Shown: piece after piece, positions 3,846 through 62,800 of the stretch
How the letters are laid out: every line of letters starts with the position of its first letter
How positions within the stretch are numbered: position 1 is the stretch's first letter
DNA from: an uncultured Candidatus Binatia bacterium
GTDB taxonomy: Bacteria; Desulfobacterota; Binatia; Bin18
Direction: 5' to 3'
Length of the DNA: 64,000 nt
NCBI GenBank assembly: GCA_965200965.1
Contig: OZ241744.1
Span: 2,496,001-2,560,000, forward strand
Notes under the pieces: model-generated
Seen by the model: only the letters and a program-made list of their open reading frames with translations
What the model was told of the DNA's origin: nothing
Databases searched by the model: none
Position numbers and translations under genes: made by a program

Positions 3846-5306
3846 GTGGCATCTCGGCGACCCCCTTCAGCGTCTCCCGGACGTGAGACAAACAAAAGGA
3901 AATCGCGCCCAAAGGGTTCTTCTTCCCACACCCCCCGGACAAAACCGGGACCGGGCCGGCCGGTGCGCCCGGTCCGCAAGAAGTCTCCAAGCCAAGCACG
4001 AAGGACGGATCGCCCTCAGCGTTCGCCGAGAGGAAGACAGGACGATTCGTCTTTGAGGAGACACGACCGCCTGCCCGCCCCGCGCGACAAACACGACCAG
4101 ACCGAGCAGACAGGGCCATCGGTCCGGCGTCCGCCCTGCCCACATTATCCGGCCTGCTCTGGCTGTCCCTTTGTCGGCGTACCGTATCAGGAGCAGCTGG
4201 ACAAAAAACAGGCCCAGATCGTGGCCGCTTTTGCCGACTCTGCGTCTCTGCGGTCGCTTGATGTTCCAGTTCCCCTTGCGTCCAGGTATCGCTTTGGCTA
4301 TCGCGCTCGGGTCAAACTGGCCGTGCAGGGTCTGAAGGGGAAGCTGGTCATTGGGCTGTATCGCCCGGAATCACACCGGGTCATCGACGTTTCGGCCTGC
4401 CCGGTCCACCCGCGGCCGATCAACGCCCTGGTCCGCTGTCTGAAACAGTTGATCGAAAAACTGCGGATCACGCCGTATGATGAACGGCACGATATCGGCC
4501 AACTCCGCTATCTCGACATTCGGTACAGTTTTTGGCAGCGGCGTTTGCTCCTGACCCTGGTCACTCGCCACATGGATTTTCCGCAGGTCCGTGACTTGAC
4601 CCGTGAGCTTGGCCGGCACTTTCCCCAGCTGGTCGGGGTGGTGCAGAACATCAATGACACCCCTGGTATGGAAGGGAATAGCATTGGGGGCCGGCGCTTC
4701 CATCCGCTGCGCGGGCGGGACTCGCTCATTGAGCAGATCGGCCCTCTGCGGCTGCATTCCCCGGCTGATGCGTTCACCCATATCAATCCGACGGTCGCCG
4801 GCCAGCTCTATCAGACGGTCCTGGACTGGGCTGAGTTGAGCGCGGATCACATCGCCCTTGATCTGTACTGCGGGATTGGGCCAATTGCCCTGTATCTGGC
4901 CAGCCGCGCCAAACTCGTCATCGGGATTGACGACAATACCCGGGCGGTCCGGGTGGCCAAAGAAAATGCGCGCCGGAATGGCTATCACAACACGCGCTTT
5001 TTCGCTGACGAGGCGGCACGCAAACTCAGAGAGACCGCAAGTCAACTGGCTCGGATCGACTGCATCGTTGTCAACCCTCCCCGCCGGGGTCTGAGTCCCC
5101 AGGTGTGTGCCGCGCTTGGGGCGGTGGCTGCGCCGCGGCTGGCCTATGTCTCGGGCGACCCGCCGAGCCTGGCGCACGACCTTGATGAACTCAGGCAGGC
5201 CGGCTATCGGCCGGTCAGGCTCCAGCCGTTTGATATGTTTCCCCAGACGGACAAGGTTGAAACGCTGGTCCTCCTGGTCAGGATGGGTCAGGAGCATGGC
5301 TGCTGA
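3846..5306 (+). CDS. rlmD: RlmD/TrmA-family m5U RNA methyltransferase homolog (catalytic Cys replaced)
   Basis: Fe-S motif CPHYPACSGC, YRARVKL, SAM motif LDLYCGIG, NPPRRG, FDMFPQT; YVSG instead of YVSC. Confidence 0.85.
   Translation: MASRRPPSASPGRETNKRKSRPKGSSSHTPRTKPGPGRPVRPVRKKSPSQARRTDRPQRSPRGRQDDSSLRRHDRLPAPRDKHDQTEQTGPSVRRPPCPHYPACSGCPFVGVPYQEQLDKKQAQIVAAFADSASLRSLDVPVPLASRYRFGYRARVKLAVQGLKGKLVIGLYRPESHRVIDVSACPVHPRPINALVRCLKQLIEKLRITPYDERHDIGQLRYLDIRYSFWQRRLLLTLVTRHMDFPQVRDLTRELGRHFPQLVGVVQNINDTPGMEGNSIGGRRFHPLRGRDSLIEQIGPLRLHSPADAFTHINPTVAGQLYQTVLDWAELSADHIALDLYCGIGPIALYLASRAKLVIGIDDNTRAVRVAKENARRNGYHNTRFFADEAARKLRETASQLARIDCIVVNPPRRGLSPQVCAALGAVAAPRLAYVSGDPPSLAHDLDELRQAGYRPVRLQPFDMFPQTDKVETLVLLVRMGQEHGC
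4001..4054 (+). repeat. family A palindromic element (54 bp), in frame in rlmD
   Basis: aaggacggatcg..gagaggaagacaggacgattcgtcttt; imperfect terminal inverted repeats. Confidence 0.85.
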
Positions 5307-59847: not shown

Positions 59848-62800
59848 CTATCCAGGCTGCTTTCTCAATCCCACCCGCTGATAGACTTTGGGCAGCTCGG
59901 TCGGCAGCGAGGCCACATCGTCAAGCACCAGGTAGCGCGACGGTTCACACATTTCGCGCAGATAATCGTGGCCGGCTTTATCAACCGTCAGACAGAAGGT
60001 CAGCACGCCGGCCTTTTCGGCTTCGCGCAGGGCCACCATTGTATCCCGAATGCCATAGGTCGTAGAGCGCCGGTCCGGGCCGTAGTCCATGTCTTGGGGA
60101 AAGCCGTCGCTCAGCAGGATCAGCAGCTTGACCCGGCAGGCCATATTTTTGAGCTTTTCCAAGGCATGTCGCACCGCGGGTCCCATCCGGGTTGAGCGCT
60201 TGGGTTCGATGGCCCCGATGCGCCCTTTGACGGTCGGCGACAGGGCCTCGACAAACGACTTGACGTGGTAGAACTCGATGTTGTCCCGGCCCTGGCCTGA
60301 GAAACCATAGATGGCGTAGGAATCGCCGATCTCTTCAAGCGCCTCAGCCATCAGTACCAGGGTCTCTTTGGTGACATCAATAATGCGGCGCGGTTTGGGC
60401 TGGGCCGGGGGCGGGTCGTGCCTCGGCCAGTCATCAGCTTCTTCGTCGCTGTAGTCGCGCGCAGGCGGGACGAGCGGCTCGTCGGTTGAGGCGCTCATGT
60501 CGAGCAGAAAGAGGGCGGCCACGTCGCGTTCGGTCTGCCGGCGTTCGGTGTACAGCTTGGCCGAGGGGGGGCAGCCGGCGCGCCTGTCAACGGCCGCGGT
60601 GACTGCGGCGTTGAGGTCAAACTCGTGGCCGTCTTCAAGGCCGCGCACCAGCCGGTACTGTTCCGGTCGGATGCGTTGGAACTCGTGTTTGATGGCCGGG
60701 GTCAGGGCCGTGTAGTCGCTGAGCGTCCGAGAAAAAAACTCGCCGGCGTCGCCGGCCAGCACGATCTCTCGCAGCCGACACCAGCGGGTCCGGTAGTCGG
60801 CGATCTGATAGTCCCACTCGTCATAGTAAAAGCTCAGGTCTTCCTGGTGCCCGACGCGGCGCTGACCGCCGGCACGCGCCGCGTCATTTCCCACGGCGGT
60901 GTGCTTCATTTCGCTCTGGCCCGGCAGTTTTCCGTTCAAATCGCTGGCGTACAGCCCTTGGGGGGTGAGCCTGTCCTGTTTGCCCTGACGAATCTGGAGC
61001 TCAAGGCCGGCCTCGATCAAGGCTTTGAGTTCTTCGGCTGACAGGGGGCTGCCGCCCGTGTCCTCCTCCATTTCGTCTTCTAGCTGTAACTCGGGTATCT
61101 CGGGCGGCGCTTGGGCCGGCGGCGGACTGTCGTTATTATCCATGTCCGGGTCAATCAGAGCGTCACCGCTCAGTTTGTCAAAGACGAGGGGGCCAAAGTC
61201 CGCAGCCTCGTCCGGGTTGGGGCGGGCGGTGGCCAGTGAGGACAGAAGCCGCAGGTAGAGCGTGGCCGCGGTCAGGGCCGAGTCGTACACCGACTGCTGC
61301 AGGTCTGCCGCGGCCGGCAGATCTGACCACAACGATTTCAGGGAGACCAGGGTTTCTGGCAGCAGCGAGGGCAGAGACAAGGCGTTCAGCCACGCCACAT
61401 CTGCGCTCAGACCCCGATACGCCGCGGCCAAGCGGGCTTGAATACGTTGGGTCTCGGTCAGCACAAACAGCGCTTCAACAATGTCGGGATGGACAAAGCA
61501 GCGAAAATACTCGGCCAAGCCGCCCAGAGGACGGAACGTCTCGCCTTCCGTTCGATCTGATGACACATTCCGTCCTTCCGGAGCCGCGTCGTCGCGCATG
61601 ATGCGGCGGACCGCGGCCGGCAGGTCTGACCACAGCCGGCTGAGTGAGAACTGGTAGGTGCCGAACTCGCGGCGGCCGGCCTGCTGAGCGGCCAGGGCGC
61701 GAAACAGCCGAAAGTTTTCGTCCCAGGTCTCAAACATCTCAACCCGGCCCGGCAGGGTCAGCTCTTCGCTCGGGGCTTCTTCAAGCACGGGCGGGTAGGA
61801 GAAAAACTCCTGGCGTCGAATGCCGACCGGGGTGCCGGTCAGCATCTGGATGTATTTGCGCAGCAGTTCCTGGACCTCTTCAAGATCAATGCCCGCCGAT
61901 GCTTGGCGCAGGACCTGAAAGCTGGTGCGTGACTCCAGGGCAAAATAGGCCACCCCGGCCTCGGGGTTGTCGGCGGCAATGCGTGCGCCTGTTGCCAGCC
62001 ACTCCTGGAGACCGGCGTCACTGGTTTCTTCACAGACCCGGGGCAAGGTCCGAATCAGCCGCGGGATGGCGGCCGGAAAGGTATTGGCCAAGCCGAGCAG
62101 GCTGTGTTGCAGGGCTGGCTGCCCGGCCAAGTCAATGGTCTTGGCCACCGGTCCCAGCAGAGGCAGCAGGCCGGGGACCGTATGCGGGTCTGAACAAATC
62201 ACCGGGGCCAGGGCGAACAGATAAAAAGACCGCAGGGCTGGACTGAGACTCGCCAGGGTCGGCGGCAGGCCAAAAAAAATCTCTGTCGCCGCCGGGGCAG
62301 ACCGGTCGGCGGCCTGTTGGACGGAGAGCAGAAACGCCAGGCGTTGGGACTGACTCAAGGCTATGAAACCGTCGGGCAGACGGGTATAGAACATCTTTGA
62401 CCCAGATTCTTGGACCAGGACGCCGAGTTTTGCCCAAGCCGCTATTTCCTCGGGACTCAGAACTGGCAGAGCGGCCGCGGCCGACGAGAAGTAGGACACG
62501 GCCAGAAACTCGCCCTTCCAGCCGTTGCAGCCCAACAACAGCCGGCCCTGCTCGGCCCAGGCGCGCAGGCGTAGCCCAAAGGGGACCGGCAGCTGGTCAA
62601 AAAGCGGGGCCGAGGCTTGAAAGAACTGCGTCCCAAGGCGACGCGAGACCCGGAGAACGTCGCGCCCAACAGCGACCCATTCTTCGGCCCGTTCGAGACC
62701 GCGCCGCCGGACCGAGTCGGGTGGAATCGCAAAATAGGCGAGCGCACCGTCGCGTGAGGCCGGCTCGTGCCCGGCCAGGTCTTCGCCAATTGCCGCCCAG

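What the first reader, a model, noticed from the sequence alone, without database searches (positions are those of the whole stretch)
4001..61577. Superfamily of short palindromic elements colonising housekeeping proteins in frame
Seen: about 20 related hairpin elements, most of them inside intact ORFs (rlmD, pgeF, gpsA, yidC, jag, mnmE, mnmG x2, parA, atpH, phoR x2-3, cmk-like, SDR, VWA, phnA). Most lengths are multiples of 3 (54, 51, 33, 30 bp). They are read in different frames and orientations, giving unrelated peptides ([68 protein letters not shown]). Families A, B and C share AARGAC/GTCYTT-type or AGTGAACG ends and a purine-rich GGAAG loop core. No target-site duplication and no transposase are evident in the window. 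Established: in-frame coding repeats are known as Rickettsia palindromic elements (~150 bp); I do not recognise these shorter sequences. Inference: a non-autonomous mobile hairpin family adds peptide loops across the proteome, at a density of roughly one per 3 kb here.
Basis: partly seen in the sequence, partly recalled or inferred. Interest (0 to 1): 0.92.

Follow-up and report, generated by a model that had tools for sequence, protein, structure and literature searches.

The report
Tiny coding hairpin transposons in Binatia
A family of 51- or 54-base hairpin-forming selfish DNA elements has inserted cleanly into about a hundred places in this sponge-associated bacterium, many inside essential genes, where it is likely translated as a harmless 17-18-residue loop, much like the palindromic elements known from Rickettsia.

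Summary
The window holds 12 full-length copies, one weaker copy and about 10 truncated or divergent relatives of one hairpin superfamily: a 15-16-bp stem that covaries between copies and a conserved purine-rich 19- or 22-nt loop. The genome holds 103 full-length copies, 86 of them exactly 51 nt.

Congeneric genomes show clean empty sites with gaps of exactly 51 or 54 nt and no target-site duplication, so these are insertions. Host genes stay open. Frame use follows the stop-free frames, and decayed remnants keep lengths of 18, 21, 30 and 33 nt. Translation is therefore inferred, not shown.

Genome-wide, 50-61 of 103 copies are intragenic. Copies shared with a sister species evolve at about the neutral rate. 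Related copies sit close together, which suggests local hopping, and density peaks near the replication origin. I found no HUH, IS110 or IS91 mobiliser and no parent IS. Copies are old: the median nearest neighbour differs at 6 of 51 positions.

It works like RPE, REP or MITE elements but fits no described family. Verdict: a real, undescribed member of a known kind, of moderate interest.

The parts
4001..4054 (+). A-type 54-nt element in the N-terminal region of the rlmD-like ORF (3846-5306). It also lies under the 5' extension of the opposite TonB-receptor ORF. Coding status is ambiguous.
   Evidence: CM E 5.8e-13. Shared with G007. The trimmed gene model starts rlmD at 4053.
5496..5546 (-). 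A-type 51-nt element in pgeF (Cu-oxidase_4), antisense to the gene; peptide KTARPVFLSKSKDDSSF.
   Evidence: Absent from G007 (net 60 nt) and from G005 and G006 (net 51 nt).
6597..6650 (+). A-type 54-nt element in gpsA, between the N- and C-terminal domains; peptide KTRRPHYSQRGREDKASL.
   Evidence: Exact 54-nt gap in G004, G005, G006 and G002. Pfam domains at 3-163 and 201-341. PDB alignment.
7198..7251 (.). 54-nt hairpin of a divergent subfamily (arm GGGAATCGTGAT), intergenic after gpsA.
   Evidence: 54-nt insertion relative to G004. Hairpin scans.
8305..8355 (+). Decayed A-type element in the periplasmic domain of yidC.
   Evidence: CM E 1.3e-4. G007 carries a clear A-type copy at this site. 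G004, G005 and G006 carry an unrelated stretch only 12-18 nt shorter.
8750..8779 (+). 30-nt remnant (loop part plus 3' arm) in yidC.
   Evidence: 30-nt gap in G004, G005, G006 and G002; 27-nt gap in G007.
10329..10361 (+). 33-nt internally deleted copy in the jag KH-R3H linker.
   Evidence: G007 has the full 54-nt copy at this site. G004, G005, G006 and G002 show a 54-nt gap.
10766..10819 (+). A-type 54-nt element in the N-terminal domain of mnmE; peptide [18 protein letters not shown].
   Evidence: Exact 54-nt gap in G004, G005 and G006; no duplication at the junctions.
12502..12519 (+). 18-nt remnant (3' arm AGGACGATTCGTCT) in mnmG.
   Evidence: 18-nt insertion relative to G004. Solo arm.
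13712..13765 (+). A-type 54-nt element in the C-terminal helical domain of mnmG.
   Evidence: 54-nt gap in G004, G005 and G006; shared with G007. CM E 5.5e-12.
14248..14268 (+). 21-nt remnant (5' arm AAAGACAAATCGT) in rsmG.
15605..15661 (+). Degenerate hairpin at the parA C-terminus: an old insertion shared in variant form by G004, G005 and G006, and absent from G002.
   Evidence: alignment. CM E 0.071.
18231..18281 (+). A-type 51-nt element four codons before the atpH stop codon.
   Evidence: CM E 2.7e-13. G005, G006 and G002 end the gene without it.
38354..38404 (-). B-type 51-nt element with a perfect 16-bp stem, at codons 18-34 of the longest mgtE ORF. It may instead lie in the 5' leader.
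39794..39834 (+). Weak, divergent hairpin in the intergenic space after mgtE.
   Evidence: CM E 0.0095. Hairpin scan.
41071..41113 (.). C-type hairpin (arm AGTGAACGA) at the N-terminus of a phosphodiesterase ORF.
   Evidence: The same arm type is seen in G004 and genome-wide.
49521..49553 (.). Short 33-nt hairpin with AAGGACG/CGTCCTT ends, intergenic between pstS and a pstC-like gene.
56193..56243 (+). B-type 51-nt element in the PhoR-like kinase, before the PAS domain.
   Evidence: CM E 1.4e-12. Net 39-nt gap in G007, G005 and G006.
57219..57269 (-). B-type 51-nt element in the PhoR-like kinase, splitting the HATPase_c domain.
   Evidence: 51-nt gap in G007 and G004. Pfam.
58169..58219 (+). 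B-type 51-nt element at the N-terminus of the cytidylate-kinase-like gene, antisense to the gene.
   Evidence: Absent from G007 (net 60 nt). CM E 1.7e-12.
59478..59528 (-). B-type 51-nt element in the SDR (3-hydroxyacyl-CoA dehydrogenase-like); peptide [15 protein letters not shown].
   Evidence: 51-nt gap in G007, G005, G004 and G006. 17-residue gap against PDB 4o5o. Homologue lengths.
61527..61577 (-). B-type 51-nt element in the 1050-aa ORF.
   Evidence: 51-nt gap in G007, G006, G005 and G004. CM E 5e-14.

Best explanation
These are copies of a non-autonomous, hairpin-shaped DNA transposon of 51 or 54 nt that inserted without a target-site duplication and is likely translated in frame as a 17-18-residue loop.

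Shown:
- One superfamily: a 15-16-bp stem that covaries between copies, and a conserved 19- or 22-nt purine-rich loop.
- Insertions of exactly 51 or 54 nt, with ends AAAGAYG...CRTCTTT or RAGGA...TCCTY.
- Different sets of filled sites in sister species.
- Copies cluster, and neighbouring copies are each other's closest relatives.

Inferred:
- A trans-acting enzyme, not identified and probably lost from this genome, recognised the hairpin shape plus the loop and stem base. It integrated copies near the donor, at sites with a weak symmetric preference (C at -4, G at +4).
- Because the unit is 17 or 18 codons long and about 4 of its 6 frames lack stop codons, many genic insertions survived. They lie mostly at termini, in linkers and in loops.
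- After insertion the copies drift neutrally and shrink by in-frame deletions.
For: Family and structure. Census: 103 full-length copies, of which 86 are 51 nt and 5 are 54 nt. The CM gives 127 matches at E <= 1 with both strands counted.

Empty sites: gaps of exactly 54 nt at e6597, e10766 and e13713, and at the jag site; gaps of 51 nt at e57219, e59478 and e61527. The junctions show no duplication. A reciprocal G007-only 54-nt insertion in mnmE has empty sites in G000, G004, G006 and G005.

Lineage spread: R1 matches in 6 of 7 congeners and 2 of 3 genomes of a second genus, and none in the other 30 relatives.

Genic tolerance: 50 copies lie inside trimmed gene models and 11 more inside longest ORFs, of 103. 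Stop-free frames per copy average 4.02 in genic copies and 3.75 in intergenic copies, and frame use follows openness. 33 of 61 genic copies lie in the first 20% or last 10% of the gene. Remnants of 18, 21, 30 and 33 nt stay in frame although they can no longer form the hairpin.

SDR insert: all but one of the 119 other listed homologues are 245-256 aa against 272 aa here. PDB 4o5o shows a 17-residue gap. The insert region has pLDDT below 50 (weak evidence, because four other segments are also low).

Neutral decay: 80.2% identity in 5 shared copies, against 90.0% in flanks and 84.2% at flank third codon positions.

Local hopping: 16 of 86 copies have their nearest sequence relative within 5 kb (permutation mean 1.6, maximum 7 in 1000). 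47 of 86 have a neighbour within 5 kb, against 22 expected. The flanks of such pairs score at background level apart from one pair (score 17 against a background maximum of 13), so segmental duplication is unlikely.
Against: - No mobiliser was found. PF01797 gives 0 matches in G000 (99.3% complete, one contig) and in the copy-rich G007, G003 and G005. IS110 gives none. Three TnpB-like ORFs are not adjacent to copies. No parent IS with matching ends was found. No transposase domain appeared among the 43 ORFs of three dense regions.
- There is no replication-strand bias (57 of 103, p = 0.32), which argues against an IS200/IS605-type single-strand route.
- No presence/absence polymorphism was seen: contigs of 4 runs from 4 studies carry all 5 copies of 55.8-62 kb. 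No two copies are identical. Activity is therefore past, not shown to be ongoing.
- Translation is untested.
- My gene model is crude (hexamer scoring), so the genic counts are approximate.
- At e8305, orthologues carry an unrelated stretch of similar length.
Confidence: 0.75

Rival explanations
1. The hairpins arise and spread without any transposase. Replication template-switching or capture of hairpin DNA at breaks copies an existing palindrome to a nearby site.
For: No mobiliser was found in a complete genome. There is no target-site duplication. Related copies lie close together in either orientation. The loop occurs in both orientations relative to asymmetric end bases: A..C 28, G..T 26, A..T 18, G..C 3, Fisher p = 1e-5. 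Arm-to-arm switching could produce this.
Against: The whole 51 or 54 nt is absent from empty sites, so no arm is copied from host flanks. Insert boundaries are identical at unrelated sites. The weak but consistent flank preference, C at -4 in 109 of 182 pooled flanks, looks like enzyme choice. Copies lie megabases apart.
Confidence: 0.1
2. The hairpins are functional cis elements, for example protein-binding or RNA-level signals with a Shine-Dalgarno-like purine loop, kept by selection in and between genes.
For: The loop is conserved and the stems covary between copies. Genic copies are in sense orientation more often than antisense, 44:16. Density is highest near the replication origin.
Against: Orthologous copies drift at about the neutral rate and lose pairing without compensation. 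G.T and A.C mismatches are equal, 89 against 93, so no strand is favoured. Only 7 of 86 copies keep a perfect core stem. Sites differ between sister species. Rfam gives no match. Much of the sense bias follows from stop-free frames.
Confidence: 0.07
3. The inserts are not translated. They are removed from the mRNA or bypassed by the ribosome, as in T4 gene 60 or yeast mitochondrial byps.
For: No data on expression could be obtained. The hairpin could in principle be a recognition structure.
Against: Lengths are 3n and the used frames lack stop codons. Truncated remnants that cannot fold still keep the frame. No stop or take-off/landing codon pattern was seen.
Confidence: 0.04

Closest known systems
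Rickettsia palindromic elements (RPE; Ogata et al. 2000 and 2002, as summarised in PMC10969869, passages read)
   Same: Palindromic selfish repeats without a gene of their own. They are inserted in frame in unrelated housekeeping genes, are read as extra peptides, and have no identified mobiliser.
   Different: RPEs are about 150 bp and each encodes a conserved peptide (PMC10969869). Here the unit is 51 or 54 nt, is read in five frames as unrelated peptides, and occurs in Binatia rather than alpha-proteobacteria.
CGTC-tagged REPs, including intragenic REPs (Di Nocera et al. 2013, PMC3733652; abstract, sections 6 and 14, and passages read)
   Same: Small palindromic repeats containing GACG/CGTC. 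They have no dedicated transposase, some copies lie in frame inside genes (including repair genes), and they occur as inverted dimers with conserved spacers.
   Different: The described CGTC units have 8-9-bp stems, 4-5-nt loops, an unpaired CGTC tag and a CCA tail. Here there is one 15-16-bp stem with a 19- or 22-nt conserved loop, and CGTC lies inside the stem.
REPINs and RAYT (REP doublets forming hairpins; Bertels and Rainey 2011, recalled, and PMC3733652)
   Same: Two inverted arms plus a spacer fold into one hairpin, with many dispersed copies.
   Different: No RAYT is present in this genome. The RAYT-like gene of three relatives is not flanked by copies. There is no GTAG tag, and many copies are intragenic.
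Bacterial MITEs (review PMC10969869)
   Same: Small size, terminal inverted repeats, no coding capacity, occasional in-frame fusions.
   Different: No target-site duplication and no related autonomous IS were found.

Membership tests
CGTC-tagged REP families 1-4 (PMC3733652) | Stem of 8-9 bp with A-T at the first and second positions, and a loop of 4-5 nt | tested here: not met
   The stem is 15-16 bp and the loop 19 or 22 nt. Read alone, an A-type arm gives only a 6-bp stem with a 3-nt loop (direct reading).
CGTC-tagged REP families 1-4 (PMC3733652) | Unpaired CGTC (or TGTC/CCTC) tag at one end and a short CCA-like tail | tested here: not met
   CGTC lies inside the paired stem. The ends are RAGGA...TCCTY or AAAGA...TCTTT, with no conserved tail.
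CGTC-tagged REP families 1-4 (PMC3733652) | No dedicated flanking transposase | tested here: met
REPIN/RAYT system | Single-copy RAYT (Y1 HUH) gene flanked by the repeats | tested here: not met
   PF01797 gives 0 matches in G000. The 171-aa RAYT-like ORF of G006 (and the matching hits in G024 and G001) has no R1 copy in the 4.3-6 kb fetched around it.
REPIN/RAYT system | GTAG tetranucleotide at the 5' end of each REP | tested here: not met
   The consensus and flank composition show no GTAG.
MITE | Terminal inverted repeats and small size without coding capacity | tested here: met
   15-16-bp inverted arms in a 51- or 54-nt unit.
MITE | Target-site duplication | tested here: not met
   Filled versus empty junctions at e6597, e10766 and the G007 mnmE copy show none. 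A test for a 2-bp duplication also fails.
MITE | Parent autonomous IS with the same ends | tested here: not met
   20 arm matches lie outside the listed elements, several of them in truncated or divergent copies, and none frames a gene-sized segment.
IS200/IS605-derived elements (PATE-like) | Y1 TnpA present and orientation bias relative to replication | tested here: not met
   No PF01797 match. 57 of 103 copies lie on the leading strand, p = 0.32.
IS200/IS605-derived elements (PATE-like) | Insertion 3' of a conserved 4-5-nt target, without duplication | tested here: inconclusive
   There is no duplication. The only flank signal is a weak C at -4 and G at +4, about 60% each.
Rickettsia palindromic elements | Palindromic repeat inserted in frame in unrelated genes | tested here: met
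Rickettsia palindromic elements | About 100-150 bp, with one conserved encoded peptide per family | tested here: not met
   The unit is 51 or 54 nt, and the peptides differ by frame and orientation.
Rickettsia palindromic elements | Sequence similarity to RPE-1 to RPE-10 | not tested
Rfam has no match.

The most novel reading that the evidence does not exclude
A transposase-orphan hairpin moves by an undescribed structure-guided route. It integrates without duplication at a weakly symmetric CNNN|NNNG site, lands mostly within a few kb of its parent, and its loop can flip relative to two non-equivalent end bases. This would point to a new class of hairpin-specific mobilising enzyme, or an enzyme-free replication mechanism, that has seeded 17-codon loops across the proteome of a sponge-symbiont lineage.
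Probability: 0.15. Interest if true: 0.75.

Novelty: new member of a known kind. Interest (0 to 1): 0.45.

Why it matters
It adds a clean, quantifiable case outside Rickettsia of selfish palindromes living inside essential genes such as mnmE, mnmG, yidC, gpsA and atpH.

The dated filled and empty sites in sister species give natural insertion-tolerance maps for those proteins. They also warn annotators and structure predictors that 17-18-residue 'loops' in Binatia proteins are parasitic DNA.

The absence of a mobiliser, the local hopping and the end asymmetry are concrete handles on the old question of how REP-like elements without a transposase move.

Tried and rejected
- RNA evidence: no RNA holder was listed for 55800-62000, so expression could not be examined.
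- Population polymorphism: contigs of 4 runs show no 51-nt gaps at the 5 copies in that stretch.
- Strand-specific hairpin (RNA-like G.U excess): rejected, 89 G.T against 93 A.C.
- Hairpin extending into the flanks: rejected; flank pairing is 16-29% at each of 10 positions.
- 2-bp target-site duplication hidden in the 51 nt: rejected.
- IS91 (PF04986) search: uninformative, because nothing rang in the control genomes either.
- Pattern scan of 185,579 species genomes with a strict B-type loop pattern: it found only the sister MAG, so it says little about wider distribution.
- The global alignment with G004 is unreliable beyond about window position 14,800, where synteny breaks.
- The AlphaFold model of the SDR has mean pLDDT 73 and several low-confidence segments, so it supports a floppy insert only weakly.
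- My first two gene models mis-called rlmD and pgeF. The counts use the models as upper and lower bounds.

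
Full report
**What is there.** The window is G000:C1:2496001-2560000 of a single-contig 3.62-Mb genome.

Oriented by their purine-rich loop, 12 full copies align as one family. The consensus is AAGGACGGAACGTGTC - ATCAGATCGAGAGGAAGGC - GACACGTTCCGTCCTT.

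- For a 16-bp helix, 88.0% of cells pair, against 76.9% in shuffles (0 of 500 reach it).
- Nine of 16 pairs change on both sides.
- Slid controls give 36.5-47.4%.

A covariance model (R1) finds the 12 loci at E <= 4e-10. It also finds 8303-8357, 39794-39834 and several weak or truncated hits. Alignment against a congener adds in-frame remnants in mnmG (18 nt), rsmG (21 nt), yidC (30 nt) and jag (33 nt), and a 54-nt intergenic hairpin at 7198-7251. Rfam has no match for any of them; its only hit in the window is a tRNA.

**Hosts.** Pfam confirms the host ORFs: rlmD-like, pgeF, gpsA, yidC, jag, mnmE, mnmG, rsmG, parA, atpH, mgtE, a PhoR-like kinase (two copies), a cytidylate-kinase-like protein, an SDR, and a 1050-aa ORF with only a sub-threshold VWA hit.

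Most inserts fall in one of three kinds of place:
- linkers: gpsA between its two domains, jag between KH and R3H;
- termini: parA, atpH, mgtE, the cytidylate-kinase-like protein;
- inside domains: mnmE TrmE_N, mnmG GIDA_C_1st, the SDR, HATPase_c.

The copies at 4001, 38354 and 58169 lie in N-terminal regions that my start-trimmed gene model excludes, so their coding status is uncertain.

**They are insertions.** I fetched syntenic DNA of five congeners and aligned each site.

| Gap | Sites | Genomes with the gap |
|---|---|---|
| exactly 54 nt | e6597, e10766, e13713, the jag site | G004, G005, G006 (G002 as well at e6597 and jag) |
| exactly 51 nt | e59478, e61527 | G007, G004, G005, G006 |
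| exactly 51 nt | e57219 | G007, G004 |

- The sister G007 shares six A-type copies (e4001, e6597, e8305, the jag copy, e10766, e13713) and holds truncated forms of the parA and atpH copies. It lacks e5496, e8745 and the five B-type copies of 56-62 kb.
- Conversely, G007 has a 54-nt copy in mnmE whose site is empty in G000, G004, G006 and G005. G006 and G005 have further copies at other sites.
- Junctions such as CTTTGCAAC|AAAGACG...CGTCTTT|GGC against CTTTGCAAC|GGC show no target-site duplication.

Results that do not fit cleanly:
- At e8305 the other congeners carry an unrelated stretch only 12-18 nt shorter.
- At e5496 and e58169 the net difference from G007 is 60 nt, and at e56193 it is 39 nt.
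- For e4001 and e38354 no empty site could be defined.

**Genome census.**
- nhmmer converges on 104-107 hits at E < 0.001.
- The CM gives 127 matches at E <= 1. Both strands are counted, and only 150 of 1204 candidates were scored.
- Of 149 nhmmer clusters, 103 pass my hairpin and loop filter. 86 are 51 nt, 5 are 54 nt, and 12 have other lengths by a boundary estimate that can be off by 1-2 nt.
- A loop-blind scan finds 99 strict hairpins against 11 in a shuffled genome. 66 of these lie outside the nhmmer-derived coordinates; several belong to further subfamilies with arms AAAGTGAACGATGA or AAGGGAATCGTGAT, and a few are known copies. The superfamily is therefore larger than R1 sees.
- G004 has 0 R1 matches, yet it carries such copies at the parA C-terminus and in gpsA.

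R1 matches occur in 6 of 7 congeners (2 to 72 matches) and in 2 of 3 genomes of one other genus. None occurs in the remaining 30 relatives. A strict B-type loop pattern occurs in only one of 185,579 species genomes, the sister MAG, whose title reads uncultured Candidatus Binatia bacterium. The own genome may be left out of that scan. Runs holding the stretch include sponge metagenomes.

**Coding context genome-wide.** The gene model is home-made (hexamer log-odds, 89% coding).

| Context | Copies (of 103) |
|---|---|
| inside start-trimmed genes | 50 |
| inside longest ORFs only | 11 |
| overlapping gene ends | 15 |
| intergenic | 27 |

 This is less than the 89% expected for random sites. By recall, it is far more than usual for REPs.

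- The 51-nt length is intrinsic, since intergenic copies have it too.
- Copies have on average 3.75 (intergenic) to 4.02 (genic) stop-free frames of 6.
- Frame use follows openness. Of 86 copies, the frames are open in 43 (+0), 83 (+1), 67 (+2), 50 (-0), 10 (-1) and 74 (-2). Among the 56 genic 51- or 54-nt copies, the same frames are used by 7, 18, 15, 4, 3 and 9 copies.
- Sense to antisense is 44:16.
- 33 of 61 genic copies lie in the first 20% or last 10% of the gene.
- Insert peptides are rich in R, S, G, T, P, D and E.

For the SDR, all but one of the 119 other listed homologues are 245-256 aa, against 272 aa here. One is 270 aa, and I did not check where its extra residues lie. PDB 4o5o shows a 17-residue gap at the insert. 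An AlphaFold model gives pLDDT below 50 for residues 97-112, but four other segments are also low.

Translation is inferred from all of this, and from the remnants that stay in frame without a hairpin. No RNA run was listed.

**Evolution of the copies.**
- Five copies shared by G000 and G007 are 80.2% identical (219 of 273 positions). Flanks are 90.0% identical, and flank third codon positions 84.2%. The copies therefore drift at about the neutral rate, and the arm changes are not compensated.
- G.T and A.C mismatches are equal, 89 against 93.
- Only 7 of 86 copies keep a perfect 15-bp core stem. The median nearest neighbour differs at 6 of 51 positions, and no two copies are identical.
- Contigs of four runs from four studies carry all five copies of 55.8-62 kb without 51-nt gaps.

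The family is therefore old and fixed in this species. The covariation between copies reflects past master copies, not selection in place.

**Clues to the mechanism.**
- There is no replication-strand bias: 57 of 103 copies lie on the leading strand.
- Flanks show only C at -4 (53 of 91) and G at +4 (56 of 91), pooled 109 of 182. Flanks do not pair with each other.
- Copies cluster. 47 of 86 have a neighbour within 5 kb, against 22 expected within the same 200-kb bins.
- Neighbours are relatives. 16 of 86 have their closest sequence relative within 5 kb (permutation mean 1.6, maximum 7 in 1000). Pairs within 5 kb differ at 11.3 positions against 16.3 for other pairs, and they occur in either orientation (14 same, 16 opposite).
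- The flanks of these pairs are unrelated apart from one pair (score 17 against a background maximum of 13), so segmental duplication is unlikely to explain the pattern. This looks like local hopping.
- Density is 8.8 per 100 kb within 200 kb of the skew-inferred origin (about 2.48 Mb), against 1-3.5 elsewhere.
- Unexplained: the first and last bases are anticorrelated (A..C 28, G..T 26, A..T 18, G..C 3; Fisher p = 1e-5). The ends are therefore not equivalent, and the loop occurs in both orientations relative to them.

**Mobiliser search.**
- PF01797 (Y1 HUH) gives no match in G000, G007, G003 or G005.
- A 171-aa RAYT-like ORF is present in G006, with matching weak Y1 hits in G024 and G001, but no R1 copy lies in the 4.3-6 kb fetched around each.
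- IS110 gives none in G000.
- The IS91 search was uninformative.
- Three TnpB-like ORFs in G000 have no adjacent copy; the nearest lies about 950 nt away, inside another ORF.
- Twenty arm matches lie outside the listed elements, and none frames a gene-sized segment.
- The 43 ORFs of three dense regions hold ordinary genes, including ProRS, AddA, AddB, RpoD and ExbBD, and no transposase.

**Comparison with known elements.** The element works like RPEs (PMC10969869, passages) and like the intragenic, transposase-less CGTC REPs of Di Nocera et al. (PMC3733652; abstract, sections 6 and 14, passages). It fails the structural definitions of both, and of MITEs and REPINs (see the membership table).

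Two literature searches returned no account of this family:
- palindromic element / in-frame terms: 156 papers, 25 listed;
- Binatia + repeat: 14 papers, 12 listed.

I read titles and abstract starts only, and no supplements.

My results agree with it. The scan also holds many similar in-frame hairpin findings in other genomes.

**Verdict.** This is a real, well-defined and apparently undescribed family of a known kind. The points that go beyond the known picture, and that set its moderate interest, are:
- the missing mobiliser;
- the insertion without a duplication;
- the local hopping;
- the enrichment near the origin;
- the end asymmetry.

Noticed in passing
window 25638-26801: Nine head-to-tail copies of a 108-nt unit (68-98% identical to the reference copy) inside the 508-aa ORF 25599-27125 (-). 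This is a 36-residue protein repeat.
   Followed up: no
window 14725-14777: AT-rich inverted repeat between rsmG and parA containing TGTTTCACATGAAACA. It differs at one position from the parS consensus as I recall it, so it is a likely partition site next to parAB.
   Followed up: no
window 44054-45541 (-): 495-aa ORF with Pre-toxin TG and Tox-ART-HYD1 (ADP-ribosyltransferase) domains, i.e. a polymorphic-toxin-like protein. A half copy of the hairpin family lies at 44888-44925.
   Followed up: no
window 49578-51911 (+): 777-aa ORF joining weak beta-propeller/WD40-like hits (residues about 226-430, all below Pfam cut-offs) to a BPD_transp_1 ABC permease domain, directly after pstS.
   Followed up: no
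window 57146: A 9-nt in-frame insertion (CGTCCAAGA) in the PhoR-like kinase is present in contigs of runs X8 and X11 but not X1 or X4. This is strain-level indel variation about 70 nt from an element.
   Followed up: no
G000 genome-wide; origin near 2.48 Mb, terminus near 0.86 Mb: Element density is 8.8 per 100 kb within 200 kb of the skew-inferred origin against 1-3.5 elsewhere. In G007, most of the matches listed also lie on the contig that carries mnmG.
   Followed up: partly
G000 copies, positions 1 and 51 of the 51-mers: The terminal bases are anticorrelated (A..C 28, G..T 26, A..T 18, G..C 3; Fisher p = 1e-5). The loop occurs in both orientations relative to non-equivalent ends. No explanation was tested.
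   Followed up: partly
L025 11001-12916 (G000:C1:2571001-2572916): EcoRI-like restriction endonuclease next to a D12-class adenine methyltransferase, just downstream of the window.
   Followed up: no
L017 2621-3136 (G006): 171-aa RAYT-like Y1 transposase ORF. Weak Y1 hits in open frames of 176 aa also occur in G024 and G001. It is not flanked by this hairpin family, so it may serve another repeat family.
   Followed up: partly
L002 (G004), opposite window 6357: G004 carries its own 51-nt insert in gpsA with an 8-bp hairpin (TGAGGAGC...GCTCCTCA), although the R1 model finds no copy in that genome.
   Followed up: no
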